The position numbers were made by a program, and so were the translations under genes. The notes under the pieces are model-generated. The model did no database searches. It had not been told where the DNA came from and worked only from the letters and a program-made list of their open reading frames with translations. This document shows, piece by piece, positions 1 to 15,583 of a stretch of DNA of 64,000 nucleotides (positions are counted from its first letter, which is position 1; every line of letters begins with the position of its first letter). The stretch comes from Acidobacteriota bacterium (GTDB lineage: Bacteria > Acidobacteriota > Thermoanaerobaculia > Multivoradales > J023), in assembly GCA_029263315.1 (NCBI GenBank), contig JAJCXR010000055.1, forward strand, positions 124,195 to 188,194. The letters run 5' to 3'.

Positions 1-593
1 ACGTCCCCGATACGGCCGGACGTGGCCATGCCTACTTCAAGCGCTACTTCTTCCCGCAGGTCCACAAGGATGCGGTGATCGTCGACGAGCGCTACAACGG
101 CGGCGGGCAGATTGCCGACTACTACATCGACATCCTGCGCCGGCCGTCGATCGCCCACTGGACGACCCGCTACGGTCAGGATTTGCATACCCCGCTGGGG
201 GCCATTTACGGCCCCAAGGTGATGATCATCGACGAGACCGCCGGTTCCGGTGGTGACCTCCTGCCTTGGATGTTCAACAAGCTCGAGATCGGTCCGCTGG
301 TCGGCAAACGGACGTGGGGTGGTTTGGTGGGTATCCTCGGTTTCCCGGTGCTGATGGACGGCGGCGGTGTGACCGCCCCCAACATCGCCATCTGGACGAA
401 GGACGGCTTTGTCGTCGAGTCCGTTGGCGTGCCGCCGGATGTAGAAGTCGAGCAGACGCCCAAGGAGGTTATCGCCGGGCATGATCCACAGCTGGAGAAG
501 GCCATCGAGCTGGCCTTGGAAGCCCTGGAAGCCAATCCGCCGGAGACGCCGGAACGGCCGCCCTTCCCGGTGCGTGCGATGCAGCATCGGTGA
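1..593 (+). CDS. Tricorn / tail-specific (S41) protease-like protein, C-terminal fragment; 5' end outside window
   Basis: The frame is open from the window edge (frame 3). Motifs IDETAGSGGD and KRTWGGLVGI are typical of the S41 / tricorn C-terminal catalytic region. Stop at 591-593. Confidence 0.55.
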   Translation, partial: VPDTAGRGHAYFKRYFFPQVHKDAVIVDERYNGGGQIADYYIDILRRPSIAHWTTRYGQDLHTPLGAIYGPKVMIIDETAGSGGDLLPWMFNKLEIGPLVGKRTWGGLVGILGFPVLMDGGGVTAPNIAIWTKDGFVVESVGVPPDVEVEQTPKEVIAGHDPQLEKAIELALEALEANPPETPERPPFPVRAMQHR

Positions 594-605
594 GCCGTCA
601 GGGCC

Positions 606-3600
606 TCAGCCGCCCGAGCGAAAGGTGAAACGTTTCACCCGCGGGGCCCAGCGCTGCAAATCGTGCAGGGTCCGGTCTTGCCCTGCGAAATTGCAGTAGG
701 TATCGAAGGCCAGATGGACGGCGTCGGCCTCTGCTTTGGGGGCTCTCTGCAAACGACGATACCTGCGTAGGGCATCGCGCCAGGTGCCGGCGTCGGCGTC
801 GGCATCTTGCTGTTCCAATAAACGATAGAGGGCGGCGGCGAGGCTGGGGGCGCCGGTGGTCAGGGCGAGCAAGGTCATGGCGGCACGGTAGCTGCCGTCA
901 CGGCCATCATCGCGCACAAAGCGCAAGGCTTCACCCGGAGTGCAGCTCGCTTTGAGGATGCGGTACACATTGACGAAGCGCTTGAGACGGCGCGGTGAAC
1001 GCCCCACGGCACCGGCCAAGGCCTCCATGTAGAGGATCTCGCCGTCTTCCATGTGCAGGGCTTGGGCGGCGGCGACGGTGTTTGGCACGCCGGAGAGAAG
1101 TTGTGAAAGCGGCTCTTCGGAACCTGGAGGGGGCGCCTCGGACGTCGGATCGGTGCGGTCGGATTCTGGCCCCGAGGACGGCTCTGCGTTTTTGGCAAGC
1201 GCTTCATCCTGTGCTTCGACCGACTGCGAGTTGCCAACCGACTGCGACCCGTCGCAAGGCCGGGCGCCCTCTTCAGCCACCGGGTCGATGGCGGGCTGGG
1301 AGGCGTCGGTGGGGAGTGTGCCGTGTGTCACTTGCGATGCGCCGGCCGTCCCGAGGTCTTGCCTTGCCGTGCTGTCCTCGGCCGGGGGATCGAGGTTTGG
1401 CTCTAGTGTTGTCAGGGCGCGGATCAGGTTGCGGCTGGCCTGTTGCCCCATGGGGGGCAGCCAGAAGGGGATCTGGAAAATCTTCTCCAAGTAGTCGTGG
1501 GGCGTGGCCCGACGCTGGAATAACAGGGGGGCTTCGTCCTCAGACGGTTCGGCAGCCTTTGTTCCCCCTGCCCGCAAGTGCTGCGGATACCGATCGGCCA
1601 AAGACTGGGCCACCCAACGCACGTCGACACCCACAACCACCACGAAGAGATCAAAAGCCAGCAGCAGGTGGATGGCCTCCAGCACTTGCACCACGGTGGC
1701 GCTGGGACAGCGATCGAGATCGTCGATGTAGAGGACGATGCGGTCCACGTGGTGCTCGGCGTTGTCGAGCTGATCCTCGGACGCCCTCCGACGCGCCTCT
1801 TTGTGCCGCAGGAGAAGATCGCTCAGGGTGCGAAAATCGTTGTGGACGGCGGAGATGACCCCTAAGTGTTGGCTGTAGGTATTGTCCCCCAGGCGTTGCC
1901 GTAGGAAGCGGCTGAAGCTCGCGGGGGTGCGGAGAGCTTCGAGCTCCCGCAGGGCAGCGTCCCGCTCCGCCTCCAGCTGGGCCACTTGGCGCTGGGCCTC
2001 CTGGACATTCTCTTGATGGATTCGGAGCTTTTGCCGGAGCTCGTCATCAAGGCGGCGATGGTGGGTCTGCAGCCAGTCGCGCAGCGCCGTGAGTTGGCGC
2101 CAAGTTCGCCGTGCGATGTCGGCGATGGGGGCGAAAAAGGCCACCAAGACGGTCAACCCCGCAGCGATTTGGTGCCCCCGCTGTTGCCACCAATTGCTGT
2201 CGAACCACGAGGCCAGATCGACCTGGCTTAGAAGCGCCAGAACGATGAGGACCAGGGCGGCGGCCAGCAGCGGGCGTTTGGGATGGCGCCAGAGCTCGGC
2301 GATGATGGCGCGGATGCCGCTACGGGCCCTCTCGATACCGCTCAGCTGACGGTAGGCCAAGCGAGCGGTGTTGAGGGTTTCTTTCAAGCCAACAGCTTCT
2401 TGCAGGGTTTCGAGACTGCGTCGCACCTCGGAGGGAACCAGCTCCGGAGGCAAGGACTGCCAGAACTCGACACGCCAGATTTCCTCACCCCCCAGGAGTT
2501 GCTTTTCCTTGTCCGCCTCAGCCTGCTGCAAGGCCGCTTGGGCCGCCGCCAGACGCGCTTCTGCCTCTTGCTGTGCGATGCCGATGAGCTCCAGCTTCTG
2601 TAGCTTGGCCTGCGCCTTGGCTTCCCCGAGGGGCCTGTAGAGGCTGCGCAGGATGTGGTCCACCAGGCTGGCCCAGATCTGGGACTCGGCATAGTGCCAG
2701 GCATTGAAATCGATCTGGATGATGCTGCGGCAGAAAACCCGTTGGCCTTGAGCGTCACGGGTTGTATTGCCCTTGAGATCATGGATGGCGTCGTTGAGCA
2801 GGTGCATGAAGAAGCTCTTGCCCGAGCCCCATTCACCGAAGATGCCGATCGACAAAGGTTGTGGTGTTTCCCAGGCGGCCACCACCGCCGCCAGGGCCCG
2901 GGCATAGGGTTCGACAAAAAGTCGATCGGCCCCCTTCGGGCGGTCCGCGGCAAAACGGCTGACGAGATGTGGGCGGGGGCCCACCAGGGCCTGTTGCCAG
3001 ACGTTTTGGTTATCGCCGGGCCACTGCTGTTGCAGATGATCGAAGAGGTGATGGCGTAGGTATTCGAGGGAGTGGCCGGCCCGGTGCAAGCGTCGATGGG
3101 CATAGGCCGGTCTCAGATTGTCTGGCCCGTTGCTGAACAGCGACGCCAGCAAGTGGCGTGTACCGAGGGGTCCCCCGTGGCTCGACCTGGCCAGACGCTC
3201 AGCCCGTCGCAGAATGGTGGCGGCATTGAGGGTGAGGGTGGGCAGGTCGGTTTGGTGATCGAAGGGGAGGGTGAGATCGAGCTCGTCGCCCTGACGCCAT
3301 TGAGCGAGCAGGGAGGTCAGATCTTTCTCGATCTGGTGGCGAAAGGGCCGTTGCAGGCAGCGCCTGAAGAAGGCGACATCGGCATCCGTCGACAGTAGCG
3401 AGTGTGGGTCCGCCAAGGCGAGCAGCAGGGCCGAAGAGCTGAGACGCCGAGCTTTGCCCTCCTTGGAGGGTTTGCGACGACGGGTGTAGTCCACGGCGAT
3501 GTGTAGGGCAGCCCGGGCGTGGGAGTCGAGGGCCAGCCGTCGCAGCAAGCCGTCGTTCTCGGTGGAGTCTGTTGTGTCTTCGTCGGCGGAGTCTGTTGTA

Positions 3601-4658
3601 TCGGGGGAGGCGTCGTCGTCGAGCTCCGCATCGCGATCACCTTCGCCGGGGTCCGGGTCTGGCTGCGCGGCGTGTTCGATCAGAAAGAGGGGCGTCTCCG
3701 GCTCTTGGAGCCACAGGACTGGGCTTCCCCAGGCCGGCCCCGGATGCTCGGCAGCGACGCTTCTTCGAGCCTTGGCAACAGCCGCCTCGGGGGAGTCGCC
3801 TTGTCGTAATTGACGATAGAAGACACGGCTGAAATGGCGGGAGATCGCCCTGTCGATGGCTAGCTCGAATCCCACCGCGGCGGCCGAACCGAAGGCAAGG
3901 GCTTGGCGGGCCAAGAGGTGGCCACCATGCTCGCCAGACGTGTCTTCGATGAATACGAGCCGTGGCACAGGGCTGAGAGACTTTTGGTAGAGATCTTCGA
4001 GGCGCAGCCTCTTCTTGCCTAAATCGAGGGAAATGTGGCCTAGCTCATTGGTCAGGAGATTGGCCGAGAGGTGCAAGATTTCTACTGGTTTGTTGGCTAA
4101 ATCAAGCGAGTTGATATCGCGACCGGTGAAAAGCAGCACCTCTGCATTTGGTGATGCTTCGAGACGAATACTTTCTTCAGATTGATTAGAGCTGATGGGA
4201 GGGCTGATCCACAGAATTCGGCGCAAGGGACGGGGTGGGGAGCCTGCCATGGGTGGCTCGACGAGGCGCGACAGGGTGACGTTTCCCAGCAAGAGGTAGG
4301 CGGAGGTTTCGGCCTCGAAAAGGTACTCCCAAGGCAATTCCAGCCAAGCTCGAGATGCCTCGTCGGCGCTGAGACGCAGGGCCAAGGTCGTCTGGCGGCT
4401 GGAGGACTGGTCCAAGCTCCGCAGGAAAAGCTGCCGGGCTCGGCTTTGGGGGAACAGCGTATCGAAAAGCCGTAGCCCAGCGAGCTCGAGGGAGGTGCCT
4501 CCATCTTCTGGAAAAAGCTCAAAGGCTTGCTCGAGCTGTTCGACCAACCCATTGCGGAGATGGGCTCTTGACGAATGATAGGTCTCGTCGGCGGCGGTAT
4601 AAATCCACCCCTTTTCGGCGAAGCGAACCGACAGCACCGTGGGCGTTGAGGTCAGCAC
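606..4658 (-). CDS. KAP-family P-loop NTPase (1350 aa) with an N-terminal CHAT-like domain and a C-terminal extension
   Basis: KAP-type Walker A SIGIFGEWGSGKSFFMHLL (about nt 2818-2870), FNAWHY motif, Walker B IVLYIDDLDRC. Predicted TM helices are inserted inside the NTPase core (LLAAALVLIVLALL..., LTVLVAFFAPIA), which is the KAP hallmark. The N-terminal ~300 aa show CHAT landmarks: LPWEYLF (about nt 4322-4345), ILHLSAN..GH, and AVGFELAIDRAISRHFSRVFYRQL. The expected catalytic Cys position reads VFIEDTSGE (no Cys). Confidence 0.8.
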   Translation of the reverse strand: MLTSTPTVLSVRFAEKGWIYTAADETYHSSRAHLRNGLVEQLEQAFELFPEDGGTSLELAGLRLFDTLFPQSRARQLFLRSLDQSSSRQTTLALRLSADEASRAWLELPWEYLFEAETSAYLLLGNVTLSRLVEPPMAGSPPRPLRRILWISPPISSNQSEESIRLEASPNAEVLLFTGRDINSLDLANKPVEILHLSANLLTNELGHISLDLGKKRLRLEDLYQKSLSPVPRLVFIEDTSGEHGGHLLARQALAFGSAAAVGFELAIDRAISRHFSRVFYRQLRQGDSPEAAVAKARRSVAAEHPGPAWGSPVLWLQEPETPLFLIEHAAQPDPDPGEGDRDAELDDDASPDTTDSADEDTTDSTENDGLLRRLALDSHARAALHIAVDYTRRRKPSKEGKARRLSSSALLLALADPHSLLSTDADVAFFRRCLQRPFRHQIEKDLTSLLAQWRQGDELDLTLPFDHQTDLPTLTLNAATILRRAERLARSSHGGPLGTRHLLASLFSNGPDNLRPAYAHRRLHRAGHSLEYLRHHLFDHLQQQWPGDNQNVWQQALVGPRPHLVSRFAADRPKGADRLFVEPYARALAAVVAAWETPQPLSIGIFGEWGSGKSFFMHLLNDAIHDLKGNTTRDAQGQRVFCRSIIQIDFNAWHYAESQIWASLVDHILRSLYRPLGEAKAQAKLQKLELIGIAQQEAEARLAAAQAALQQAEADKEKQLLGGEEIWRVEFWQSLPPELVPSEVRRSLETLQEAVGLKETLNTARLAYRQLSGIERARSGIRAIIAELWRHPKRPLLAAALVLIVLALLSQVDLASWFDSNWWQQRGHQIAAGLTVLVAFFAPIADIARRTWRQLTALRDWLQTHHRRLDDELRQKLRIHQENVQEAQRQVAQLEAERDAALRELEALRTPASFSRFLRQRLGDNTYSQHLGVISAVHNDFRTLSDLLLRHKEARRRASEDQLDNAEHHVDRIVLYIDDLDRCPSATVVQVLEAIHLLLAFDLFVVVVGVDVRWVAQSLADRYPQHLRAGGTKAAEPSEDEAPLLFQRRATPHDYLEKIFQIPFWLPPMGQQASRNLIRALTTLEPNLDPPAEDSTARQDLGTAGASQVTHGTLPTDASQPAIDPVAEEGARPCDGSQSVGNSQSVEAQDEALAKNAEPSSGPESDRTDPTSEAPPPGSEEPLSQLLSGVPNTVAAAQALHMEDGEILYMEALAGAVGRSPRRLKRFVNVYRILKASCTPGEALRFVRDDGRDGSYRAAMTLLALTTGAPSLAAALYRLLEQQDADADAGTWRDALRRYRRLQRAPKAEADAVHLAFDTYCNFAGQDRTLHDLQRWAPRVKRFTFRSGG

Positions 4659-4840
4659 GGAACCGACGTCTCCAAGGGACCCGAGGCCGTCGGGTAGATC
4701 GATTCCAGGATCTGCGGCGACGACGGTCTGGGCATCAGGGCCTCACGTTCTTGGGCGTTGCGATACAAGTGCGATAGGACGCCATTGTAGCGGGCCCCTT
4801 CGAGGGCTCACAAGCCGGTGACGGAGGCCTGAAAAACGAA

Positions 4841-4899: not shown

Positions 4900-5811
4900 T
4901 CAGGGCTCGGTCGGCGACGCCGCCGTCAGCTCCGGTGAATCGAAGGCGAGGATACCACCGCCAATGACCGCTGTCGCGGCGGTGGGGATGAGCACTGCCG
5001 GCTTGCCCCACCAAGCGATGACGCAGGCTCGACAGCGCTCGTCACCGCGCTTGATCATGTTGGGGTTGATTCGGGCGATGATGCCGTCGCACAACCAGTG
5101 GAAGACCTCTTCGCCCCGTTGCCAGTGGGCCGTCTCGCCCACCGTCAAGTTCTCGGCCTCACCGAGCTGCTGCGGCGTCAGGTCAGGACGGCAGTTCTCC
5201 ACCACTTCGATCACCTTGGTCTTCGATTTGGCGATCAGGCGTCCCGTCGGATCGTGCACCGAAGTGTAAAACTCGGCGGGCTCGTTCTCCAACTGCTCGA
5301 GCCATTCTTGGAAGGTCTCGTTGTCCATGGTGGCCAGCCAGTCGCGGGAGACTTGCTTCCCCAGGCTGGCGCGCTCGCGGATCAGGTCGTCGTCGAGCTC
5401 GTTGTTGGGGTCGCGGTCGTCGGAGGCTTGCTTCTCCCTCCACCACAAAGCCCATTCGTAGTCGTCTTCCCTGTCCCGGCGACGCTCCTCGAGATCATGG
5501 CGGTCCAGGACCTGGTCTTCTGCTTTGGGGAAAACGCCCCAGTAGCGGTCTGACCCGGCCGGGCGCATTTGGACGTAGTACATATCCTCGACGACATCGT
5601 TGAGACGCCGGAAGTTGAGGCGAACCGTGGTGTCCGGGATGTTGTTTTCAACCCGAGCCCAGCCGACGCCATTACCCTCTTCAATGGGTAGGCAGGCAAC
5701 GTCTTCGGCATAAACCCGAAGCGGTTCCTCGGCTAGTGCTGGAAAGGTCAGCAGTGCGAACAGGGCCACCACCGACAAAAAGGGGCCCTGCAGGCTTCGA
5801 GCACGGCGCAT
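4900..5811 (-). CDS. Hypothetical secreted protein (303 aa), acidic, with a hydrophobic C-terminal segment
   Basis: N-terminal signal peptide MRRARSLQGPFLSVVALFALLTFPALA. No recognisable catalytic motifs. Sits directly upstream of the KAP NTPase gene on the same strand. Confidence 0.5.
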   Translation of the reverse strand: MRRARSLQGPFLSVVALFALLTFPALAEEPLRVYAEDVACLPIEEGNGVGWARVENNIPDTTVRLNFRRLNDVVEDMYYVQMRPAGSDRYWGVFPKAEDQVLDRHDLEERRRDREDDYEWALWWREKQASDDRDPNNELDDDLIRERASLGKQVSRDWLATMDNETFQEWLEQLENEPAEFYTSVHDPTGRLIAKSKTKVIEVVENCRPDLTPQQLGEAENLTVGETAHWQRGEEVFHWLCDGIIARINPNMIKRGDERCRACVIAWWGKPAVLIPTAATAVIGGGILAFDSPELTAASPTEP

Positions 5812-8343: not shown

Positions 8344-10464
8344 ATGGGCCTGGCTTGGCTGGTCGTCATGGTTGTTTCAGTGTGGGCGATGCCTGCCCTG
8401 GGGGCGGAGGAGCATGGGCTCGAACCTTCTCCGGCGTCGCCGGGGGAAACAGCCGATGAGCTGGAGACGGAGGTGGCGTTGCTGGCTCAGATCGGCCGTT
8501 GCTTCTCGCCCAGTTTTTCTCCGGACGGAGAGCGCCTGGCTTTTGTTTCCGACCTCAATGGCATCCCACAGGTATGGACGATTCCCACCCGCGGTGGGTT
8601 TCCCTCCCTGGTGACCAGTCTGCAAGATCAAGTAGGAGAGGTGCATTGGTCGCCCCAAGGGGAGACCTTAGCTTTCAGCTTGGCGCCCGGTGGCGGCATG
8701 AATCAGCAGGTTTACCGTATCGAAGCCGACGGCTCGGGCCTTGAGCGGCTCACCGCCGGAGGGCGGGACAACAACTGGCTAGGGACCTTCGACGACTCGG
8801 GCAAATGGCTCAGTTGGTCGTCCAACGTCGCGGACCCGAGCTCCATGGACGTCTGGCTCTACGACCTGACGGCTGGCCAAGGGCGCCTGGTGGTGGACAA
8901 CGAAGGCATCGGTCGGCTGGTGGATCTGGATCTTGTCGGCGGCCGCGGTGTGGTCTATCGCATGGTGAACCGGGGTGATGACAACCTCTATTTGGTGGAC
9001 TTCGAGGCGTCGTCCGAGACCTTGCTGACGCCCCACCAGGGACCGGGTAGTTTTGGCGGCGGCACCTTTTCGGCCGATGGCCGGACGGTATATATGACGT
9101 CCAATGCCGAGCGCGATCTGTCGGCCTTTGCCAGGGTCCGTCTCGACGCCGCCGGCCAACCGGGTCCCATCGAAGTGTTAGTGGCCAGGGACGATGCCGA
9201 GCTCGAGGGTTTCGAGATTTCCCACGACGGTGATATCGCCGCCTTGATTTGGAATCAAGCAGGACGCAACGAGCTCGAAATGCTGGACTTGGCTACGTTG
9301 AAGCCGTTGCCGTCGCCGCAGATGCCGGCGCAGATGATCAACGGTCTGACCTTCTCAGCGGACGATCGGCGGCTGGCAATGGTGCTCAGTGGAGCCTCTG
9401 CGCCGCTCGACATTTGGGTATTGGAGTTGGCCAGCCAAGAGCTCTGGCAAGTCACCCGCAGCCCCCATCCGGGCATCGATCTCGATCGTCTGGTGCAACC
9501 TGAGCTGGTGCGGTACCCGGCCCACGATGGGCTCGAGCTCTCCGCCTGGCTCTATCGGCCGCTCGGCGTTCAGGGGTCGGCGCCGTTTGTCCTAAGCTTC
9601 CACGGTGGGCCCGAGGGGCAGGAACGGCCCCGCTTCAACAGTGTCTACCAAGCCTTGGTGCAGCGTGGCATCGGCGTCTTGGCGCCGAATGTCCGGGGTT
9701 CGTCGGGTTTTGGCAAGCGCTTCGTCAATCTCGACAACGGTGCCCTGCGTTTCGACGGCATCAAGGACATCGAGGCGTCGACGAATTACCTCATCGATCA
9801 TCACCACAGTGAGGTCGGGCAGCTCGGCATCATGGGCGGCTCCTACGGCGGCTACATGACCATGGCCGGTTTGGCGTGGTATCCCGACCTCTTCGCGGCC
9901 GGTGTCAATCTATTCGGAGTGGTCAACTTCGAGACCTTCTTTGCGCAGACGGAGCCCTGGATGGCCGCCGTCTCGAAAGTCGAATACGGTGATCCCGAGA
10001 CCCAGGCCGATCTTTTGCGCCGGCTCTCGCCCATCCATTATCTCGATGCGGTCAAAACGCCCACCTTGGTGGTGCACGGCGCCAACGACACCAATGTTCC
10101 AGTGGTGGAGGCAGAGCAGGTGGTCGATCATCTGGAGAAGCGCGGAATTCCGGTGAGCTACGTGCTCTTCCCCGACGAAGGCCACGGCTTCCGCAAAACC
10201 GCCAATCGGCTGCGCATGGCGGTGGAGATCGTGCGCTGGTTCGAGACTTACTTGGTACGCCGCCAACCCCAAAACCCGAGCAGCAGCAGCATGGCACCAC
10301 CGCCCGCGACCTTCCATCCCCAGGTCGATGCACCGGCCGCCGCTTCCGGCGACACCCTCAGGTCCCCATTGCCCAGCAGACTGACCCCGGCCCAGGCGGC
10401 GGTGGGAAGCCCCTTGGCGATGGCCTCCCGCCGGGCGGATCGCAGGGCGGCGGCGGCGCTTTGA
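8344..10464 (+). CDS. Prolyl oligopeptidase family (S9) serine peptidase with an N-terminal TolB-like beta-propeller
   Basis: Catalytic region GIMGGSYGGYM (Ser), HGANDTNV (Asp) and DEGHGF (His). The ORF is open from 8095, but the likely start is the Met before the signal peptide MGLAWLVVMVVSVWAMPALGA (ATG at 8344). The 3' ~70 codons after the DEGHGF catalytic-His motif are low-complexity and overlap the convergent CHAT gene by 217 bp. Confidence 0.8.
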   Translation: MGLAWLVVMVVSVWAMPALGAEEHGLEPSPASPGETADELETEVALLAQIGRCFSPSFSPDGERLAFVSDLNGIPQVWTIPTRGGFPSLVTSLQDQVGEVHWSPQGETLAFSLAPGGGMNQQVYRIEADGSGLERLTAGGRDNNWLGTFDDSGKWLSWSSNVADPSSMDVWLYDLTAGQGRLVVDNEGIGRLVDLDLVGGRGVVYRMVNRGDDNLYLVDFEASSETLLTPHQGPGSFGGGTFSADGRTVYMTSNAERDLSAFARVRLDAAGQPGPIEVLVARDDAELEGFEISHDGDIAALIWNQAGRNELEMLDLATLKPLPSPQMPAQMINGLTFSADDRRLAMVLSGASAPLDIWVLELASQELWQVTRSPHPGIDLDRLVQPELVRYPAHDGLELSAWLYRPLGVQGSAPFVLSFHGGPEGQERPRFNSVYQALVQRGIGVLAPNVRGSSGFGKRFVNLDNGALRFDGIKDIEASTNYLIDHHHSEVGQLGIMGGSYGGYMTMAGLAWYPDLFAAGVNLFGVVNFETFFAQTEPWMAAVSKVEYGDPETQADLLRRLSPIHYLDAVKTPTLVVHGANDTNVPVVEAEQVVDHLEKRGIPVSYVLFPDEGHGFRKTANRLRMAVEIVRWFETYLVRRQPQNPSSSSMAPPPATFHPQVDAPAAASGDTLRSPLPSRLTPAQAAVGSPLAMASRRADRRAAAAL

Positions 10465-13103
10465 CCCGTTGCTAGATGACCGTAGAAGCTTTCGAAGAAA
10501 AAGGCGGCGTCGGCGTCCCGCAAGGGCCAACGGGAGCCGATGACACCGTGGGCTCCCGCTTCGAAGAAGGCCCGCGCCAGACTCAAGATGCCTTCGGCCC
10601 GCAGCAGCTCACCGGCGGCTGTCTGGCAAGCGGAGACCACCACCAGGCGACCTCCGAGATCGAGGTCGGCGATCTCCGGCGATCTCAGCAGGCCATCCTC
10701 TTCCAAGCCCCCGGGGGTGAGGATGAGGCAGGAACGCTCGGCCCGTTGACCGTCGGCGACCGCATGGGAGGCAAAATGAACGACACCATATTGGGCCAGG
10801 TCGTGCCCCTTGACAAAGTGCTCACTAGCCTCGGCGCCGACCACCAAGCGTCCTCCCAAGCGCCGGACGATGGCTCTGCCTTCGTGTCGTGCATGGGGCA
10901 GCTGGCCGAGATGTAGGCCCTGCAGCAGGACAGCGCTGCGGGTGGTGTCGGCATGCCGCGGAGCGGAGGGTAGCCGTGGGTCGGCGAGGGCGAGCAGCGA
11001 ACGCCGGGCGGGGGGAACCTCGTCGTGGCGCCAGCGGTGCCACAGGCTGGCGGACGGCGCCTGGACGATCTCAAAACGTTGGCCGAGGGCCGGGGCCTCC
11101 GGTTCAGCCCGCAAGGCCGCAAAGGGCAAGTGATGCAGCACTCCATCGGGCACCAGCACGAGGCGCCGGGTGGCGGCGGGGAGATCCGCCAGGGCGTCGG
11201 TCAGCAGGGCGGTGTAGAGCTGGTGTGCCACGTCGGCCTCGCTGCCGTCCCGGCGCTGCAGCAGGCCGAGAAAAATGGAGACCGACGGCGCCAGGGCCAG
11301 CGAAGGGTCGAGGGCGAAGCGTCGGCTACCCTGCGCCGTGCTGACGATGACCCAGGCGCCGCCCCCCGCCTGGCCGAAGAAGTCGATCCACAGGTCGATC
11401 TGAAAGGACAATAGCGCCTCGTCGGGCCGCAACGTCGCCTCGATCTCCCGCAGCTCGACGAAACGGGTCTCGCGGCGCTCCTTGGCGACCTCGGGGGCGG
11501 CGAGGAAACGCTCTTGGAGCTCCCAGCCGTCGAGCTCGTTGAGCAGGCGTTGACGGAGGTCGGAACCCAGGCCGGGATCGAGCAGACGCCGCTGGATGGC
11601 AGCGATGCGTTTGCGGATCCGCCGACGCTCACCTTCGGAGGTCCCAACGGTGGGGCTTCGCTCCACGCTCTCCAGCAGCACCGGCGAGCGCAGGCGCTCG
11701 ATGATGGCGAAGGCTTGGGCCAAATCCGGCGTTTCGTCTTCCAGCAGACGGCCCGCCAGCCAAGCCAGCTCCGTCGACCAGTTGCTCAGCAGCTGTGCTC
11801 GGGTGAGGGGATCTTGTTGCACCTTTCGCAAGCTTTCGATGGCGTCGAGGGCCTGGTGGCTGACCTCCAGAGCGGCCTCCCGTTCGAGGGCATGCCAGGC
11901 GGCACGCACCAGGGAGCGCCAAGCGAACACTTCGTAGAGAGGATTCTGATGTCGCTGCGCGAGATCGAGGCCCTGGCGACTCGCCGCCAGCGCCGCGGCC
12001 GGGTCTCGCTGGGCCAAGAGTCGGCCGCGCACCGAATGGCAGGAGGACTCGATGGCCACGTCGGCGATCTCCCTGGCCGCTGCAAGACAGGCCTCGATAT
12101 GGACTTTGGCGTCCTCGGGCCGACGGCTGATCAAAACCTCCGCCAGCATGCGATGGGCCCGTGCGGCGTTGATCCGGCTGCCTTCCTTGTTCGCTAAGTC
12201 GAGGGCGACCGCCGCTCGGGCCTCGAGATCCGGCAGAGCCGCCGCGTCTGGGGCCAGCTCCAACTGGCCTTGACGTGCCATGGCGATATTGAGGGCGATG
12301 CCCGCCGTGCCGTAGGCATCCTCCTGGGCCTGGCGCAGGGCCAGCAGATGCTCATAGGTGGTGATGGCGTCATGCCAGCGACCCAGCTCGAAGGCCAGCC
12401 TGCCGAGCTCGAAGAGAATCGACGATTGCAGGCGTGCCAGGTCATCTCGTTCGGCAACCAGCCCGGCGGCCCGTTGTAGATCGGCGTAGGAGCGCCCGAG
12501 GTCACCCCCGGTGTTGAGGCGATGGCTGGCGGCAAGCACCAGGGCTCGGGCCGTGGCCTCGCTGTTCGCGCCAGCTTCGGCGCTGCGTTGGGCTGCCAAC
12601 ATGTGCTCTGTCGCGGCCCGGTGTTGGCCCTGTCGCAGCAGAATGCGGTGGGCATTGGCATGGGCTAGGACCACTCCGAGGGTTTCACCGTGCCTTTCGA
12701 GCTGTGGGATGGCGGCTTCGAAGTGACGCAAGGCCGCCTCGTTGTCGCGCCCGGTGGCGAAATAGCCGAGCACCAAGCTGGGCCAGCCGTGGTCTGTATC
12801 GTCTCGGCGGCGGGTTTGCAGCGCCTCCCTCGATTGTGACCAGGCTTGGGGGTGGGTCGAACGGGAGTACTGGCGGGCGACCTGGAAGAAGCACAGGTGG
12901 CTAAGGTAGTCCTGGGGAGCGTCTAACACTTTCTGACGGCAAGCGGCGAGCTGCATCGCCGGGTCGTTTTCTTCGCCGCTGGCCCAGGCCGGTTGGAGAG
13001 TCAGCCAGGCGAGGCACACAACAAGCACCGCAGCGACGAGCCCAACTGAGGGCGCGCTGTAGCACGCAGTGTGTCGACGCAAGGCCCGGAGCTCAGAACC
13101 CAT
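10248..13103 (-). CDS. Secreted/anchored TPR-repeat protein with a C-terminal CHAT (caspase-like) peptidase domain
   Basis: CHAT landmarks: LVLVPDGVLHHLPFAALRA, His in VHFASHAVADG, Cys in LVVVSACQTAAG, and the closing GAHGVIGSRWPLRDADAAFFFESFY. The upstream part is TPR-like helical repeats. A signal/anchor follows the internal Met MGSELRALRRH... (ATG complement at 13101-13103); the ORF is open further to 13271. Confidence 0.85.
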   Translation of the reverse strand: MGSELRALRRHTACYSAPSVGLVAAVLVVCLAWLTLQPAWASGEENDPAMQLAACRQKVLDAPQDYLSHLCFFQVARQYSRSTHPQAWSQSREALQTRRRDDTDHGWPSLVLGYFATGRDNEAALRHFEAAIPQLERHGETLGVVLAHANAHRILLRQGQHRAATEHMLAAQRSAEAGANSEATARALVLAASHRLNTGGDLGRSYADLQRAAGLVAERDDLARLQSSILFELGRLAFELGRWHDAITTYEHLLALRQAQEDAYGTAGIALNIAMARQGQLELAPDAAALPDLEARAAVALDLANKEGSRINAARAHRMLAEVLISRRPEDAKVHIEACLAAAREIADVAIESSCHSVRGRLLAQRDPAAALAASRQGLDLAQRHQNPLYEVFAWRSLVRAAWHALEREAALEVSHQALDAIESLRKVQQDPLTRAQLLSNWSTELAWLAGRLLEDETPDLAQAFAIIERLRSPVLLESVERSPTVGTSEGERRRIRKRIAAIQRRLLDPGLGSDLRQRLLNELDGWELQERFLAAPEVAKERRETRFVELREIEATLRPDEALLSFQIDLWIDFFGQAGGGAWVIVSTAQGSRRFALDPSLALAPSVSIFLGLLQRRDGSEADVAHQLYTALLTDALADLPAATRRLVLVPDGVLHHLPFAALRAEPEAPALGQRFEIVQAPSASLWHRWRHDEVPPARRSLLALADPRLPSAPRHADTTRSAVLLQGLHLGQLPHARHEGRAIVRRLGGRLVVGAEASEHFVKGHDLAQYGVVHFASHAVADGQRAERSCLILTPGGLEEDGLLRSPEIADLDLGGRLVVVSACQTAAGELLRAEGILSLARAFFEAGAHGVIGSRWPLRDADAAFFFESFYGHLATGQSAAAALRSARREAIAKGLPTAAWAGVSLLGNGDLRVSPEAAAGASTWGWKVAGGGAMLLLLGFWGWRRTK

Positions 13104-13183
13104 CACCGGGCGGGACGCCCTTCGGGGCGCCCCGCCTATGGTTTCTCGGGCTGCTGCCTTGGCGGCAAAGTTGAAGGGGGTGA

Positions 13184-13735
13184 TCAGAAGGTGGTCTCCC
13201 CAGACTGCCAAACCCCAGGGCAATCCCCGTTGAAGATCGGACCCTCTTCTTCGGCTGCTGGCCCAGTGCACTTCACTAGCTCTTCGGTGGTCATGTTGCC
13301 GAGGTCGATCTGGTTGAGCGAGGTAATCGGCTGCATTCCCGCTTCGGTCTTGCGGCTCAACACGATGACGAACCTCACCGTGAGGGTTAGCCCATTATGG
13401 TTGTAGTCGTCACCCCGGACCGTCAGGCTCAACGCCTGACCAGCATTCAGGTTCTGATGAAGATCCTCGAGACGTACGCCGAGATCGTCGTAGGCTTCGA
13501 GGGTGAGCGTGCCGCCCTCACTGGTCGCGGCGACATCGGCCACGGTCAGCAATAGGAGCTGATCCGGCAGGAGGTCGTAGAACCCCGTTTTCATGGTCGA
13601 GGTCAGGACATCGGCGCTCGCCGGCAGGGATGTCAGCATGAGCAGAACGAGAAAGCACCCCGCTCCCAAAATCTTGCCTACGACGCGGTGGGGGATCAAA
13701 GATGAGGAGGAGATCGTTGCATTGGGTTGAGACAT
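13184..13735 (-). CDS. Hypothetical small secreted protein (183 aa)
   Basis: Hydrophobic signal-like segment ILGAGCFLVLLMLTSLPASA. No known motifs. Sits between the anti-sigma factor gene and the CHAT-TPR gene on the same strand. Confidence 0.4.
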   Translation of the reverse strand: MSQPNATISSSSLIPHRVVGKILGAGCFLVLLMLTSLPASADVLTSTMKTGFYDLLPDQLLLLTVADVAATSEGGTLTLEAYDDLGVRLEDLHQNLNAGQALSLTVRGDDYNHNGLTLTVRFVIVLSRKTEAGMQPITSLNQIDLGNMTTEELVKCTGPAAEEEGPIFNGDCPGVWQSGETTF

Positions 13736-13815
13736 GGCTGCTTCTCCGAAGGTAATCTGAGGTTGATCGAAGCAACAGTGGAGTTGGGGGCGCCCGTCCG
13801 TCGGAGCGAGCTCCG

Positions 13816-14535
13816 CTACTGCATCTCGGCGAAGAAGGTCGCCGAGGTGAGCCGACGACCATCGGGTAGATGGGCATCGATTTGCCAGAGGAGACGGGAG
13901 CCTGAAGGGATGGCGCTCAGCTGTTGGGCCGCGACGCGATACTCGTTGGTTCCGAGATCATCGACATCGAGTAGCACCTGCAACTGCGGCGTCAGCAGTC
14001 GCAACCGATAGCGGGCATCTTCGATCGCCGACCACCGGAGCGTAAAATCCTGCCTGGGAAGACGTTCCCCTTCGGCCAACAGGCTGACGACTTCGTCTTG
14101 CGTCGCCTGCCGGTATTGGGAGACCGATCCGGGCATCCATGGAGACTGACTGAGACCTATGCTCAGGGCCAACATGGCTGCCACCGCAAATCCGAGGCTC
14201 CATTGATGCCGCCGAACCCACGGTCGGGTGGCGACCCAAGAGGGCGTCGCGGTTTGGCGTGCGCTGACCTCAGCGTCTTCTTCCGCCCCTAGGCGTTGGT
14301 CTGCCGTGACCAGGTCGCCGAGCTCGTCGCTGAGGGCTTTGGCGATGCGCCAGGATTCCGCCATGGCTGGATTTCGAGCCGTCTCTTCGATCACTGCATG
14401 GCGTTCTTCTCGGCTCAGCTCGCCCCGTACCGCTCGCCAGATGCGTTCATCGTCGACCGTATCCAGGTCGCCGTCTTCCGCCATCGCGGAAAAGGCTCGA
14501 CGTAGCGCTTCGCTGTCTTCGGGGTTGAAGCTCAA
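13816..14535 (-). CDS. Putative anti-sigma factor (single-pass membrane protein)
   Basis: Start overlaps the stop of the upstream ECF sigma gene by 4 bp (ATGA coupling). Cytoplasmic N-terminal ~100 aa, one TM helix (SLGFAVAAMLALSIGL), then a periplasmic domain. This is the usual ECF partner architecture. Confidence 0.55.
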   Translation of the reverse strand: MSFNPEDSEALRRAFSAMAEDGDLDTVDDERIWRAVRGELSREERHAVIEETARNPAMAESWRIAKALSDELGDLVTADQRLGAEEDAEVSARQTATPSWVATRPWVRRHQWSLGFAVAAMLALSIGLSQSPWMPGSVSQYRQATQDEVVSLLAEGERLPRQDFTLRWSAIEDARYRLRLLTPQLQVLLDVDDLGTNEYRVAAQQLSAIPSGSRLLWQIDAHLPDGRRLTSATFFAEMQ

Positions 14536-15083
14536 GGCTGGATTCCCTTCTTGCGCAGACAGTGCCTTAGATTATCGAGGCCACGGAACACTAGATTCTC
14601 GGTTCGTTTTCGCTTCCATCCCAAGGTTCGGGAGGATTCTGGTACCGAGTGACCCTGCAAGTAGAGGATCACCGCCATGCGGCGTTCTTGTTTCATGAGA
14701 CCTAAACAATCTTTGATCGCCCGTCCCGTCTGGCGGGCGACCGCGTCCCGTTCCGGATCGTGGGCGTCCCTTGGTTCCACTGTGTCGTCGCTGTCCTCCA
14801 GTGGGCTCTCCCGTTGGCGGCGTAAACGACGGATTTCATCGACGAGGGCACTGTGTGCCACTCTGAACAGATAGGACGCATTGGCGGGGATCATTCCCTC
14901 ACTCTGTCTTCGCTGCATCTGCATGATCTTCATCATTGCCATTTGCACCAAGTCGTCGCGGCGATCGGACAGCCAGGCGGGACAAATACGATAGATGGCC
15001 CGCTCCAGCTTGGGCCGTAGCTCATCCAGGGAGATGCCGTCGGCCTGTCCTGTCTCGGGGTTTGCCATCGCTGGTTCCATCAT
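14532..15083 (-). CDS. ECF (sigma-70 family) RNA polymerase sigma factor
   Basis: Region-2-like DDLVQMAMMKIMQ and region-4 HTH RMAVILYLQGHSVPESSRTLGWKRKRTENLVFRGLDNLR. The ORF is open to 15572, but an ECF-sized 184-aa product starts at MMEPAMANPETG (ATGATG complement at 15078-15083). Confidence 0.75.
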   Translation of the reverse strand: MMEPAMANPETGQADGISLDELRPKLERAIYRICPAWLSDRRDDLVQMAMMKIMQMQRRQSEGMIPANASYLFRVAHSALVDEIRRLRRQRESPLEDSDDTVEPRDAHDPERDAVARQTGRAIKDCLGLMKQERRMAVILYLQGHSVPESSRTLGWKRKRTENLVFRGLDNLRHCLRKKGIQP

Positions 15084-15467
15084 GTTTGTCTTCGTTGCCC
15101 TTGGTGAATGAAGCACCCTGTGGACCAATCGCTCGGGATCTGCCGTTCCTTGGATCGACAATAACAGCCGATCGACGTTCGCCTGCGGACACCACCGTCC
15201 CGGTATCGGACATTGGGCCGTCCCGGAATGGCGGATGCCAGGGTAGGCCAGAGGGCCGTCGAGACCGGTGGCTCCATACAATAAGGCGAGAAGCCATCCC
15301 TCATCCCTTTGTCGACGGAGATTCTGCCGTCTGGAACGTCCTTTGCAAAGACCGAGGTCGATAAGACATTTTTGCAGCTCCATGCAACCACAGGCGTCTG
15401 GCGACAGGGAAGCGCATGGGGCTGTATGGGGCGAAGGTTGTGATGTGCGTGGGTTATGGTGTTGTGG

Positions 15468-15563
15468 GGCTGTAGTACTTTGCCGTAGCTCTTCGAAGCC
15501 GTAGCGCTTTGAAGCCGTTGCGCGGTGAAAGCTGTGGTGCTGTGAAGCTGTAGTGTCTTGAAA
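15468..15563. repeat. Array of 5-6 degenerate ~16-bp direct repeats (GCYGTNGYGYBNTGAA) ending 18 bp upstream of the permease start codon
   Basis: Units read directly: gccgtagctcttcgaa / gccgtagcgctttgaa / gccgttgcgcggtgaaa / gctgtggtgctgtgaa / gctgtagtgtcttgaaa, preceded by a weaker copy gctgtagtacttt. They lie in the divergent ECF-sigma / permease intergenic region. Confidence 0.5.
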
Positions 15564-15583
15564 GTTGGACATGGAGATCGGTG

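What the first reader, a model, noticed from the sequence alone, without database searches (positions are those of the whole stretch)
606..4658. KAP P-loop NTPase fused to an apparently Cys-less CHAT-like domain
The 1350-aa protein has an unmistakable KAP core: GEWGSGKS Walker A, FNAWHY, DDLDRC, and TM helices inserted inside the NTPase. Its first ~300 aa carry the two landmark ends of a CHAT (caspase-HetF) domain (LPWEYLF, and AVGFELAIDRAISRHFSRVFYRQL) plus the His block (ILHLSAN..GH). The position where CHAT proteases have the catalytic Cys reads VFIEDTSGEHGG.

This suggests a pseudo-protease/recognition module driving a membrane-embedded NTPase switch. A 500-aa acidic C-terminal extension is also uncharacterised. 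KAP NTPases recur in anti-phage/conflict contexts, and a genuine CHAT-TPR protease is encoded 6 kb away.
Basis: partly seen in the sequence, partly recalled or inferred. Interest (0 to 1): 0.7.

Follow-up and report, generated by a model that had tools for sequence, protein, structure and literature searches.

The report
Membrane KAP ATPase with dead CHAT domain
A rare 1350-residue bacterial membrane ATPase of the KAP type carries at its front end a caspase-like CHAT domain that keeps its fold but has lost both catalytic residues, so that domain most likely binds proteins rather than cutting them.

Summary
The ORF is real but lies on the minus strand (606..4658). The KAP NTPase core is confirmed: Pfam 7.7e-28, intact Walker A and B, and a two-helix membrane hairpin between them.

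Residues 1-325 are a true but degenerate CHAT domain.
- The family profile finds 8024 relatives, and all 8 sampled are strong Pfam CHAT proteins.
- Both catalytic columns are lost in all five family members. His is N/V/T/S or a gap; Cys is T/N/N/L/T. The window domain has no cysteine at all.

The "500-aa acidic extension" is really the KAP tail, a 112-residue low-complexity linker and a 155-residue module shared by the whole KAP clade.

In 115 relatives the N-terminal slot holds TIR, EVE, SAVED, PG-binding or extra Clp_N modules, never CHAT. The upstream 303-aa gene is an Acidobacteriota core gene, not a partner. The nearby TPR-CHAT belongs to an ECF-sigma unit.

Best reading: a conflict-type membrane NTPase switch with a non-catalytic CHAT binding module. 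It is a new variant of a known kind, of moderate interest.

The parts
606..4658 (-). Whole gene, 1350 aa, GTG start at 4658, stop included
   Evidence: Identical protein P0001 is in the public collection. There are four full-length relatives, P0002-4 and P0010.
3684..4658 (-). Residues 1-325: catalytically dead CHAT (caspase-like, clan CD fold) domain
4059..4061 (-). Asn200, at the column of the catalytic His (HFxGHG in relatives)
   Evidence: His in 26/30 aligned relatives; N/V/T/S or a gap in the five family members.
3939..3941 (-). Thr240, at the column of the catalytic Cys (RLVVLNAC in relatives)
   Evidence: Cys in 25/30 relatives; T/N/N/L/T in the family. No Cys anywhere in residues 1-325.
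3543..3683 (-). Residues 326-372: acidic variable linker (18 D/E of 47)
   Evidence: 19-50% identity within the family
3024..3542 (-). Residues 373-545: Clp_N-like double-repeat domain
   Evidence: 4-sequence profile vs PDB: Hsp104 N-domain, E 4.8e-4. 13-sequence profile: ClpC N-domain, E 3.4e-10, and all but about 5 of the 60 listed matches are Clp/Hsp104 N-domains. Pfam Clp_N hits relative L057 at 1e-8. Pfam is silent on the window protein itself.
1410..2933 (-). Residues 576-1083: KAP P-loop NTPase core, including the inserted coiled-coil/TM region
   Evidence: Pfam KAP_NTPase 7.7e-28. The core profile matches 124 ORFs, including every one of the relatives' ORFs extracted from GTDB loci.
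2814..2837 (-). Walker A GEWGSGKS (608-615)
   Evidence: intact in all 5 members
2115..2273 (-). Residues 796-848: two-helix membrane hairpin with a short Trp-rich loop, inserted between Walker A and B
   Evidence: Hydropathy. 4 K/R in the 15 residues on each flank against 1 in the loop, which points to cytoplasmic flanks.
1707..1736 (-). Walker B VLYIDDLDRC (975-984)
   Evidence: intact in all 5 members
1074..1409 (-). Residues 1084-1195: acidic, Pro/Ser/Thr-rich low-complexity linker
   Evidence: 20 D/E, 4 K/R, 15 P, 23 S/T. 4-30% identity within the family.
609..1073 (-). Residues 1196-1350: conserved C-terminal module (SPRxxKRFVNxYR ... RFTFR) shared by the KAP clade
   Evidence: The family profile hits the C-termini of nearly all relatives, E down to 3e-20. 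No Pfam or PDB match.
4784..4813 (-). Promoter-like site in the 241-bp gap upstream of the gene (weak consensus evidence)
   Evidence: A terminator-like hairpin at 4858-4843 follows the upstream 303-aa gene.

Best explanation
The gene encodes a cytoplasm-facing, membrane-anchored KAP-family P-loop NTPase. Its order of parts is: dead CHAT domain, acidic linker, Clp_N-like domain, KAP NTPase with a two-helix membrane hairpin and coiled coils between Walker A and B, low-complexity linker, and the clade's C-terminal module.

Shown: the NTPase motifs are intact. The CHAT domain keeps the family's fold and structural signature (LPWE, R131, H196, W310) but has lost both catalytic residues in all five known members, so it cannot be a cysteine protease.

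Inferred: the protein belongs to the class of NTP-driven conflict or defence switches. A variable N-terminal module senses or acts, and the NTPase couples that event to oligomerisation or a change at the membrane, as proposed for PifA, EF_KAP and the YobI-type NTPase Tmn. In this family the N-terminal slot is filled by a non-catalytic CHAT, probably helped by the Clp_N-like domain. Together they would work as a protein- or peptide-binding recognition or assembly module. The output would come from the ATPase and membrane part, not from proteolysis.
For: Identity of the parts:
- KAP model, motifs and TM hairpin.
- CHAT homology over the whole domain.
- Confident CHAT/separase fold.
- Dyad lost by two independent alignments, and no Cys in the domain.
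- Clp_N homology.

The dead CHAT is maintained rather than decaying. 61 positions are invariant across five members that are only 32-62% identical in this domain, and they include the positions that are invariant in active CHATs.

Conflict-system affinity. Among 115 relatives of the same KAP clade, the N-terminal slot carries TIR_2 (L006, L036, L048, L052, L062, L064, P0007), EVE (L013, L014, L022, L025), SAVED (L019), PG_binding (L056, L064) or extra Clp_N repeats.

Sensor-like evolution. The N-terminal modules evolve much faster (32-68% identity) than the NTPase (73-92%).

Accessory gene. The family has only five members. It sits at a variable locus beside a conserved core gene.

Literature. 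KAP fusions give Walker-B-dependent phage defence (PMC13552941). KAP can replace STAND NTPases in conflict systems (PMC8195603). A TM-inserted P-loop NTPase acts at the membrane (Tmn, PMC13001434).
Against: - No experiment exists, and no ligand or trigger is known.
- The visible neighbours are not defence genes: PADLOC finds nothing convincing on 9 neighbouring ORFs.
- The gene keeps one chromosomal position in related genomes, which also fits a lineage-specific housekeeping role.
- In many relatives the N-terminal slot holds an effector (TIR). A dead enzyme there could therefore be a decayed effector rather than a sensor.
- The residue-level structural superposition on an active CHAT could not be read out. 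The dyad assignment rests on sequence and profile alignments plus the secondary-structure register.
Confidence: 0.5

Rival explanations
1. Pseudo-protease partner. The dead CHAT heterodimerises with, and so regulates or recruits, an active CHAT protease encoded elsewhere, for example the TPR-CHAT at 10248..13271. This would resemble cFLIP with caspase-8 or the pseudo-protease domain of separase.
For: 8 of the 150 closest CHAT relatives are tandem proteins with one active and one dyad-less CHAT copy. Several of the very best hits (P0012-P0015, P0017) are of this kind. A genuine CHAT protease lies 5.6 kb away.
Against: The TPR-CHAT follows a single N-terminal TM helix. It is strung with an ECF sigma factor, like the periplasmic DdvA (PMC11506125). 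The dead CHAT is on the cytoplasmic side. Unrelated genes in both orientations lie between the two. No CHAT gene is called in the sequenced flanks of the other family members, L001-L003. Only 1 of 115 clade relatives has a CHAT ORF within its flank.
Confidence: 0.12
2. Decayed effector. An ancestral active CHAT-KAP lost catalysis, and the N-terminal domain is now a functionless relic. The protein works through Clp_N, KAP and the C-terminal module alone.
For: The CHAT domain is the fastest-evolving folded part, at 32-62% identity. The residues at the former dyad columns differ among members. Relatives often carry a true effector (TIR) in this slot.
Against: 61 positions are invariant, including the CHAT structural signature. 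The domain is retained without truncation in all five members, down to 51% overall identity. The fold is predicted with high confidence. No active CHAT-KAP ancestor-like protein was found among 150 CHAT hits or 115 KAP relatives.
Confidence: 0.15
3. Lineage-specific housekeeping or envelope function, not conflict. The protein is a membrane-associated ATPase scaffold that works with the neighbouring secreted 303-aa protein or with envelope and polysaccharide genes.
For: The chromosomal position next to the 303-aa gene is conserved in four family genomes. Sugar-nucleotide genes lie between the two in L003. There are no defence genes among the visible neighbours.
Against: The 303-aa gene has more than 245 homologues against five for the KAP family. 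In three other genomes the 303-aa gene is followed by unrelated genes. A terminator-like and a promoter-like site separate the two genes. No homologue of the 303-aa protein lies near any of 115 KAP relatives. The clade's N-terminal modules (TIR, SAVED, EVE) are typical of defence.
Confidence: 0.13
4. The domain is still a protease that uses non-canonical catalytic residues.
For: His196 is invariant. Thr240 sits at the nucleophile column in two members.
Against: His196 is the conserved non-catalytic first His of the HFxGHG motif and is also present in all active relatives. The nucleophile column is T/N/N/L/T. There is no conserved Cys or Ser nearby, and the window protein and P0002 have no Cys at all in this domain.
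Confidence: 0.03

Closest known systems
KAP family P-loop NTPases (Pfam PF07693; PifA of the F plasmid, Kidins220/ARMS, EF_KAP of Enterococcus faecalis)
   Same: Same NTPase family by model score and motifs, with TM helices inserted in the P-loop domain. Modular accessory domains are fused to the NTPase. EF_KAP and other KAP fusions give Walker-B-dependent phage defence (PMC13552941). PifA excludes T7 at the membrane (cited in PMC13001434).
   Different: No described KAP protein that I could find carries a CHAT domain, active or dead, or a Clp_N-like domain. PADLOC PifA and QatA models match only the P-loop stretches. The fused module is N-terminal here, whereas the tested region of unknown function in EF_KAP is C-terminal.
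QatA, the ATPase of the Qat anti-phage system
   Same: It is the best-scoring named defence model, and it is a KAP-type ATPase.
   Different: NCBIfam QatA scores 88 bits against a cutoff of 600 and covers only about 100 residues. No QatBCD-like neighbours were detected.
CHAT proteases: Csx29/TPR-CHAT of Craspase, SAVED-CHAT (PDB 8TL0), separase, DdvA
   Different: Both catalytic residues are absent. The domain is fused to a membrane NTPase rather than to TPR or SAVED.
Pseudo-proteases of the caspase clan: cFLIP, the separase pseudo-protease domain, bacterial pseudo-orthocaspases (PMC6426788)
   Same: A caspase-clan fold is kept after loss of the His-Cys dyad, with presumed binding or regulatory roles. 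Dyad-less CHAT copies recur among the closest relatives: 12 single and 8 in tandem with an active copy, out of 150.
   Different: Those examples pair with an active paralogue or stand alone. Here the dead domain is fused to a KAP NTPase, and no active partner is identified.
[quoted passage not shown]
   Same: Two TM helices are inserted within the P-loop domain, with coiled-coil arms. The defence output at the membrane is driven by ATP turnover after a phage protein is recognised. This is a mechanistic analogy.
   Different: Tmn belongs to a different P-loop family (YobI, not KAP) and has no recognisable accessory domains. No Tmn model appeared among the PADLOC hits. The oligomeric state and ion export are unknown here.
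Clp/Hsp100 N-terminal domains (Pfam Clp_N)
   Same: Two tandem repeats with the ...A..LA.....IGxxHLLxALL... pattern. The profile hits ClpC, ClpB and Hsp104 N-domains. In Clp ATPases this domain binds adaptors and substrates (established knowledge).
   Different: It is not attached to an AAA+ unfoldase. The Pfam Clp_N model does not reach significance on the window protein itself.

Membership tests
KAP P-loop NTPase (PF07693) | Significant match to the family model | tested here: met
   98 bits against a gathering score of 20, E 7.7e-28
KAP P-loop NTPase (PF07693) | Intact Walker A (GxxxxGK[ST]) and Walker B (hhhhDD) | tested here: met
   GEWGSGKS at 608-615 and VLYIDDLDRC at 975-984, conserved in all 5 members
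KAP P-loop NTPase (PF07693) | Transmembrane helices inserted within the NTPase domain | tested here: met
   Hydrophobic helices at about 796-816 and 829-848, between Walker A and B, with positively charged flanks
KAP P-loop NTPase (PF07693) | NTP hydrolysis activity | not testable with these tools
   Only the motifs can be read
CHAT domain (PF12770), caspase clan CD | Sequence homology to the family | tested here: met
   Pfam 25 bits against 24. The family profile finds 2269 proteins at E<=1e-10, and 8/8 sampled are strong Pfam CHAT. The mixed profile hits SAVED-CHAT 8TL0 at 1e-23.
CHAT domain (PF12770), caspase clan CD | Caspase/separase-type fold | tested here: met
CHAT domain (PF12770), caspase clan CD | Catalytic His-Cys dyad (needed to be a peptidase of this family) | tested here: not met
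   The His column is N200 and the Cys column is T240. The family shows N/V/T/S/gap and T/N/N/L/T, whereas relatives show H in 26/30 and C in 25/30. There are zero Cys in residues 1-325.
Clp_N (PF02861) domain | Match to the Pfam model | tested here: not met
   No Pfam hit on residues 365-585 at E<=0.1. Relative L057 does hit Clp_N at 1e-8.
Clp_N (PF02861) domain | Profile-level homology to solved Clp N-domains, with two repeats | tested here: met
   The 13-sequence profile hits the ClpC N-domain at E 3.4e-10. Both ClpC repeats align, and some matches span the whole double repeat.
QatA (Qat defence system) | Score above the equivalog cutoff, and QatBCD neighbours | tested here: not met
   88 bits against 600. 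The neighbours are a 303-aa unknown, a ParA-like ATPase, DUF3616 and an S9 peptidase. There are no PADLOC Qat hits.
PifA | Full-length similarity to PifA | tested here: not met
   The PADLOC PifA model scores 40 bits, with its best stretch covering only the P-loop residues 576-632
Tmn / YobI NTPases | Membership of the YobI P-loop family | tested here: inconclusive
   No Tmn model is among the PADLOC hits at E<=1. I did not verify that the library holds one. The resemblance is architectural only.

The most novel reading that the evidence does not exclude
The dead CHAT domain, together with the Clp_N-like domain, is a bait-type sensor. It keeps a protease's substrate groove and captures an invader protein, or a peptide produced during infection. 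That binding switches on the KAP ATPase, whose membrane hairpin then perturbs the membrane. This would be the first pseudo-protease used as the recognition module of a prokaryotic immune NTPase.
Probability: 0.2. Interest if true: 0.7.

Novelty: new variant of a known kind. Interest (0 to 1): 0.42.

Why it matters
KAP NTPases are only now being shown experimentally to be phage-defence engines with exchangeable modules, and what those modules do is largely unknown. This family puts a catalytically dead caspase-like domain and a Clp adaptor-binding-type domain into the slot where relatives carry TIR, EVE or SAVED. If the dead CHAT proves to be a sensor or an assembly domain, that would extend the pseudo-enzyme principle known from cFLIP and separase to bacterial immune NTPases. 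It would also give a compact single-gene system for studying how ligand binding is coupled to a membrane-inserted P-loop. If the domain is a decayed effector, the family is an evolutionary curiosity confined to a few Acidobacteriota.

Tried and rejected
Searches that found nothing or too little:
- Whole-protein phmmer against PDB sequences found nothing useful.
- The first AlphaFold run, with only the 4 family sequences, gave a poor model (pLDDT 56). It was replaced by a 34-sequence alignment.
- The word-indexed search with the N-terminal profile found a single CHAT protein.
- hhalign of the N-terminal profile against the neighbouring genuine CHAT aligned only the last 66 columns.
- The metagenome scan with N-terminal motifs found no further family member.
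- Neither the GTDB scan nor the second metagenome scan found a CHAT-KAP fusion.
- The KAP-core profile found no KAP domain in the 150 best CHAT hits outside the family.
- The C-terminal module has no Pfam or PDB match, even as a 12-sequence profile.
- The Aravind et al. 2004 KAP paper is not held in the library. I therefore could not check whether caspase-like fusions were listed there.

Ideas rejected:
- The 303-aa upstream protein as a functional partner.
- The TPR-CHAT 5.6 kb away as a partner.
- A defence-island context on the visible side of the window.
- QatA or PifA membership.
- An alternative catalytic pair in the CHAT domain.


Full report
**The observation**

The finding's coordinates hold one ORF, but it is on the minus strand (606..4658, GTG start, 1350 aa). 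All quoted motifs are present.
- Pfam gives KAP_NTPase at E 7.7e-28 (98 bits, cutoff 20).
- Pfam gives CHAT just above threshold (25 bits, cutoff 24; residues 166-305 on profile positions 116-270).
- PADLOC and NCBIfam give only partial QatA, PifA and PDC-S20 hits on the P-loop stretches. QatA scores 88 bits against a cutoff of 600.
- Walker A (GEWGSGKS, 608-615) and Walker B (VLYIDDLDRC, 975-984) are intact.
- Two hydrophobic helices (about 796-816 and 829-848) lie between them. There are four K/R residues in the 15 residues on each flank and one in the Trp-rich loop. That pattern indicates a hairpin with all soluble parts in the cytoplasm. A third hydrophobic stretch (about 987-1017) is the core strand region after Walker B, not a TM helix.

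**The family**

The word-indexed search of 5.8 billion proteins found only three full-length relatives, P0002-4, at 66, 64 and 51% identity. The exhaustive search added a fifth member, P0010, which is the 1388-aa gene of locus L003.

Within these five, identity differs strongly by part:

| Part | Identity within the family |
|---|---|
| N-terminal (CHAT) domain | 32-62% |
| Middle (Clp_N-like) domain | 45-68% |
| The two KAP halves | 73-92% |
| C-terminal module | 62-88% |
| The two linkers | 4-50% |

**The N-terminal domain is a real CHAT homologue**

A profile of residues 1-335 from four members was scored against 1.84 billion representatives. It gave 8024 hits at E<=1e-3 and 2269 at E<=1e-10, and many covered profile positions about 40-335 in one stretch. 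Eight of eight sampled hits are strong Pfam CHAT proteins, with E from 1e-25 to 1e-58.

With four sequences AlphaFold gave a poor model (pLDDT 56). With 30 of these relatives added it gave pLDDT 89.8 and pTM 0.90.
- Foldseek against the PDB: the top 31 hits are all CHAT/separase-type. They are SAVED-CHAT 8TL0, Csx29, separase, the anti-sigma factor DdvA and the ciliary FAP46/CFAP46.

The refutation test "non-caspase fold" therefore fails, and the fold is confirmed.

Two independent alignments place the motifs the same way. One aligns the 150 hits to the family profile with HMMER. The other is a MAFFT alignment of 34 sequences.
- Relatives read H[IV][LF]HF[IV]GHG. The window protein reads ILHLSAN. 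His196 is the first, non-catalytic His, invariant in all 34 sequences. The catalytic His column is Asn200. It is His in 26 of 30 relatives and N/V/T/S or a gap in the family.
- Relatives read RLVVLNAC. The window protein reads RLVFIEDT. The Cys column is Thr240. It is Cys in 25 of 30 relatives and T/N/N/L/T in the family.

The mixed profile aligns these same motifs to HILHFIGHG and LVVLNAC of the solved SAVED-CHAT, 8TL0 (E 1e-23). In the model, Thr240 follows directly on strand 234-239, and Asn200 lies in the strand/hairpin 194-212. This is the register expected for the dyad.

Residues 1-325 of the window protein and of P0002 contain no cysteine at all. No Cys is conserved in the other members, and His196 is the only invariant His.

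Even so, 61 positions are invariant across the five members. They include P109, W110, E111, R131, H196 and W310, which are also invariant in the active relatives. The fold is being maintained without catalysis.

Dyad-less CHAT domains are not unique to this family. Of the 150 best hits:
- 127 have a single active copy.
- 12 have a single dyad-less copy, five of which are this family.
- 8 have one active and one dyad-less copy in tandem.
- 5 have two active copies.

Residues about 373-545 contain two repeats of the Clp N-domain pattern (...RRLSSSALLLALAD; ...LGTRHLLASLFS).
- A four-sequence profile hit the Hsp104 N-domain at E 4.8e-4.
- After adding nine relatives from L003, L009 and metagenomic KAP loci, the 13-sequence profile hit ClpC N-domains at E 3.4e-10. 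All but about five of the 60 listed PDB matches are Clp/Hsp104 N-domains, both ClpC repeats align, and some matches span the whole double repeat.
- Pfam's Clp_N model is silent on the window protein, but it hits relative L057 at 1e-8.

**The C-terminal part**

The KAP-core profile (576-1083) is matched end to end by relatives. Only 1084-1195 is an acidic, Pro/Ser/Thr-rich low-complexity linker (20 D/E, 4 K/R). A second acidic linker lies at 326-372.

Residues 1196-1350 (SPRRLKRFVNVYR ... RFTFRSGG) match the C-termini of nearly all clade relatives, with E down to 3e-20. This module has no Pfam or PDB counterpart. There is therefore no 500-aa acidic extension.

**The wider KAP clade**

Scans of GTDB species genomes (35 loci) and JGI metagenomes (80 loci) returned relatives with best-segment identities of 26-40% over the KAP core and C-terminal module. 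They come mostly from Acidobacteriota, Myxococcota, Actinomycetota and soil metagenomes.

None has a CHAT domain fused to the KAP core, and only one (L028) has a CHAT ORF in its flank. Their N-terminal regions carry:
- TIR_2: L006, L036, L048, L052, L062, L064, P0007.
- EVE: L013, L014, L022, L025.
- SAVED: L019.
- PG_binding_1: L056, L064.
- Extra Clp_N-like repeats: L041-L047, L057.

This is the modular layout of NTP-dependent conflict systems. The literature supports that reading:
- KAP can take the place of STAND NTPases in such systems (PMC8195603).
- KAP fusions give Walker-B-dependent phage defence (PMC13552941).
- The related TM-inserted YobI NTPase Tmn recognises a phage protein and acts at the membrane (PMC13001434).

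**Genomic context**

The upstream 303-aa protein has a signal peptide and a C-terminal TM helix. It is found next to the KAP gene in four family genomes.
- It is much better conserved than the KAP protein: at least 89% identity against 64-66%.
- It has more than 245 homologues, named only in Acidobacteriota, Thermoanaerobaculia and Holophagales MAGs.
- In three other genomes it is followed by unrelated genes.
- In L003 three sugar-nucleotide genes separate it from the KAP gene.
- No homologue of it lies near any of the 115 KAP relatives.
- A terminator-like hairpin and a promoter-like site lie in the 241-bp gap between the two genes.

It is a lineage core gene bordering a variable locus, not a partner.

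The genuine TPR-CHAT (10248..13271, minus strand; CHAT E 2e-53) has one N-terminal TM helix. It lies in a same-strand string with an ECF-type sigma factor at 14532..15572, which resembles the DdvS/DdvA pair (PMC11506125). Its CHAT domain is probably periplasmic and is unlikely to meet the cytoplasmic dead CHAT. PADLOC finds no defence system among nine neighbouring ORFs.

**Interpretation**

Shown:
- The protein is a KAP NTPase with intact motifs and a membrane hairpin.
- It carries an N-terminal CHAT fold without the dyad.
- It carries a Clp_N-like domain.
- It carries the clade's C-terminal module.
- The family is rare and accessory.

Inferred: the protein is a conflict-type NTPase switch. 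The dead CHAT, perhaps together with Clp_N, binds a protein or peptide or mediates assembly. The output comes from the ATPase and membrane part. My confidence is about 0.5.

Rivals:
- Regulator of an active CHAT in trans: 0.12.
- Decayed effector relic: 0.15.
- Non-conflict housekeeping role: 0.13.
- Non-canonical protease: 0.03.

**Novelty**

Each part is a known kind, and pseudo-caspase-clan domains are known. The combination of dead CHAT, Clp_N and KAP was not found in the literature I could search, nor outside five sequences. I rate it a new variant of a known kind, of moderate interest.

Noticed in passing
window 10248-15572 (minus strand): A same-strand string of an ECF-type sigma factor (14532-15572), two small ORFs (13816-14535 and 13184-13735) and a TPR-CHAT protein with an intact dyad (HFASHA / VVVSACQT) behind a single N-terminal TM helix. 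In composition it resembles the DdvS/DdvA sigma/anti-sigma pair that controls a CBASS-CRISPR island in Myxococcus (PMC11506125).
   Followed up: partly
window 4900-5811 (minus strand); L121, L122, L123: The 303-aa protein has a signal peptide and a C-terminal TM helix, no Pfam family, and more than 245 homologues at 48-81% identity, with Acidobacteriota names only. It often lies beside polysaccharide or sugar-nucleotide genes and a ParA-like ATPase. It is a conserved lineage-specific envelope protein of unknown function.
   Followed up: partly
proteins P0011-P0017, P0026, P0031 (hits): Several large bacterial proteins carry tandem CHAT domains in which one copy keeps the His-Cys dyad and the other has lost it. 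This is reminiscent of separase's pseudo-protease plus active domain. The dyad-less copies are the best matches to this family's domain.
   Followed up: partly
L027 7433-14026: A 2197-aa ORF joins a complete hydantoinase/oxoprolinase (Hydant_A_N, Hydantoinase_A, Hydant_A_C) to a KAP NTPase core. It is either an odd fusion or a read-through or assembly artefact.
   Followed up: no
window 1-593 (plus strand); L001 4984-8307: The C-terminal end of a Tricorn-type S41 protease converges on the KAP gene at the left edge of the window. The same arrangement is present in L001. In L002 and L003 the downstream genes are DinB_2, an alpha/beta hydrolase and a dethiobiotin-synthase-like gene, so the KAP gene sits at a recombining, variable junction.
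   Followed up: partly
L056 4066-6282; L064 4810-6564: KAP-clade relatives with a peptidoglycan-binding domain (PG_binding_1) in the N-terminal region, in L064 together with TIR. This is unexpected for a region predicted to be cytoplasmic. It may point to a different topology or to sensing of muropeptides.
   Followed up: no
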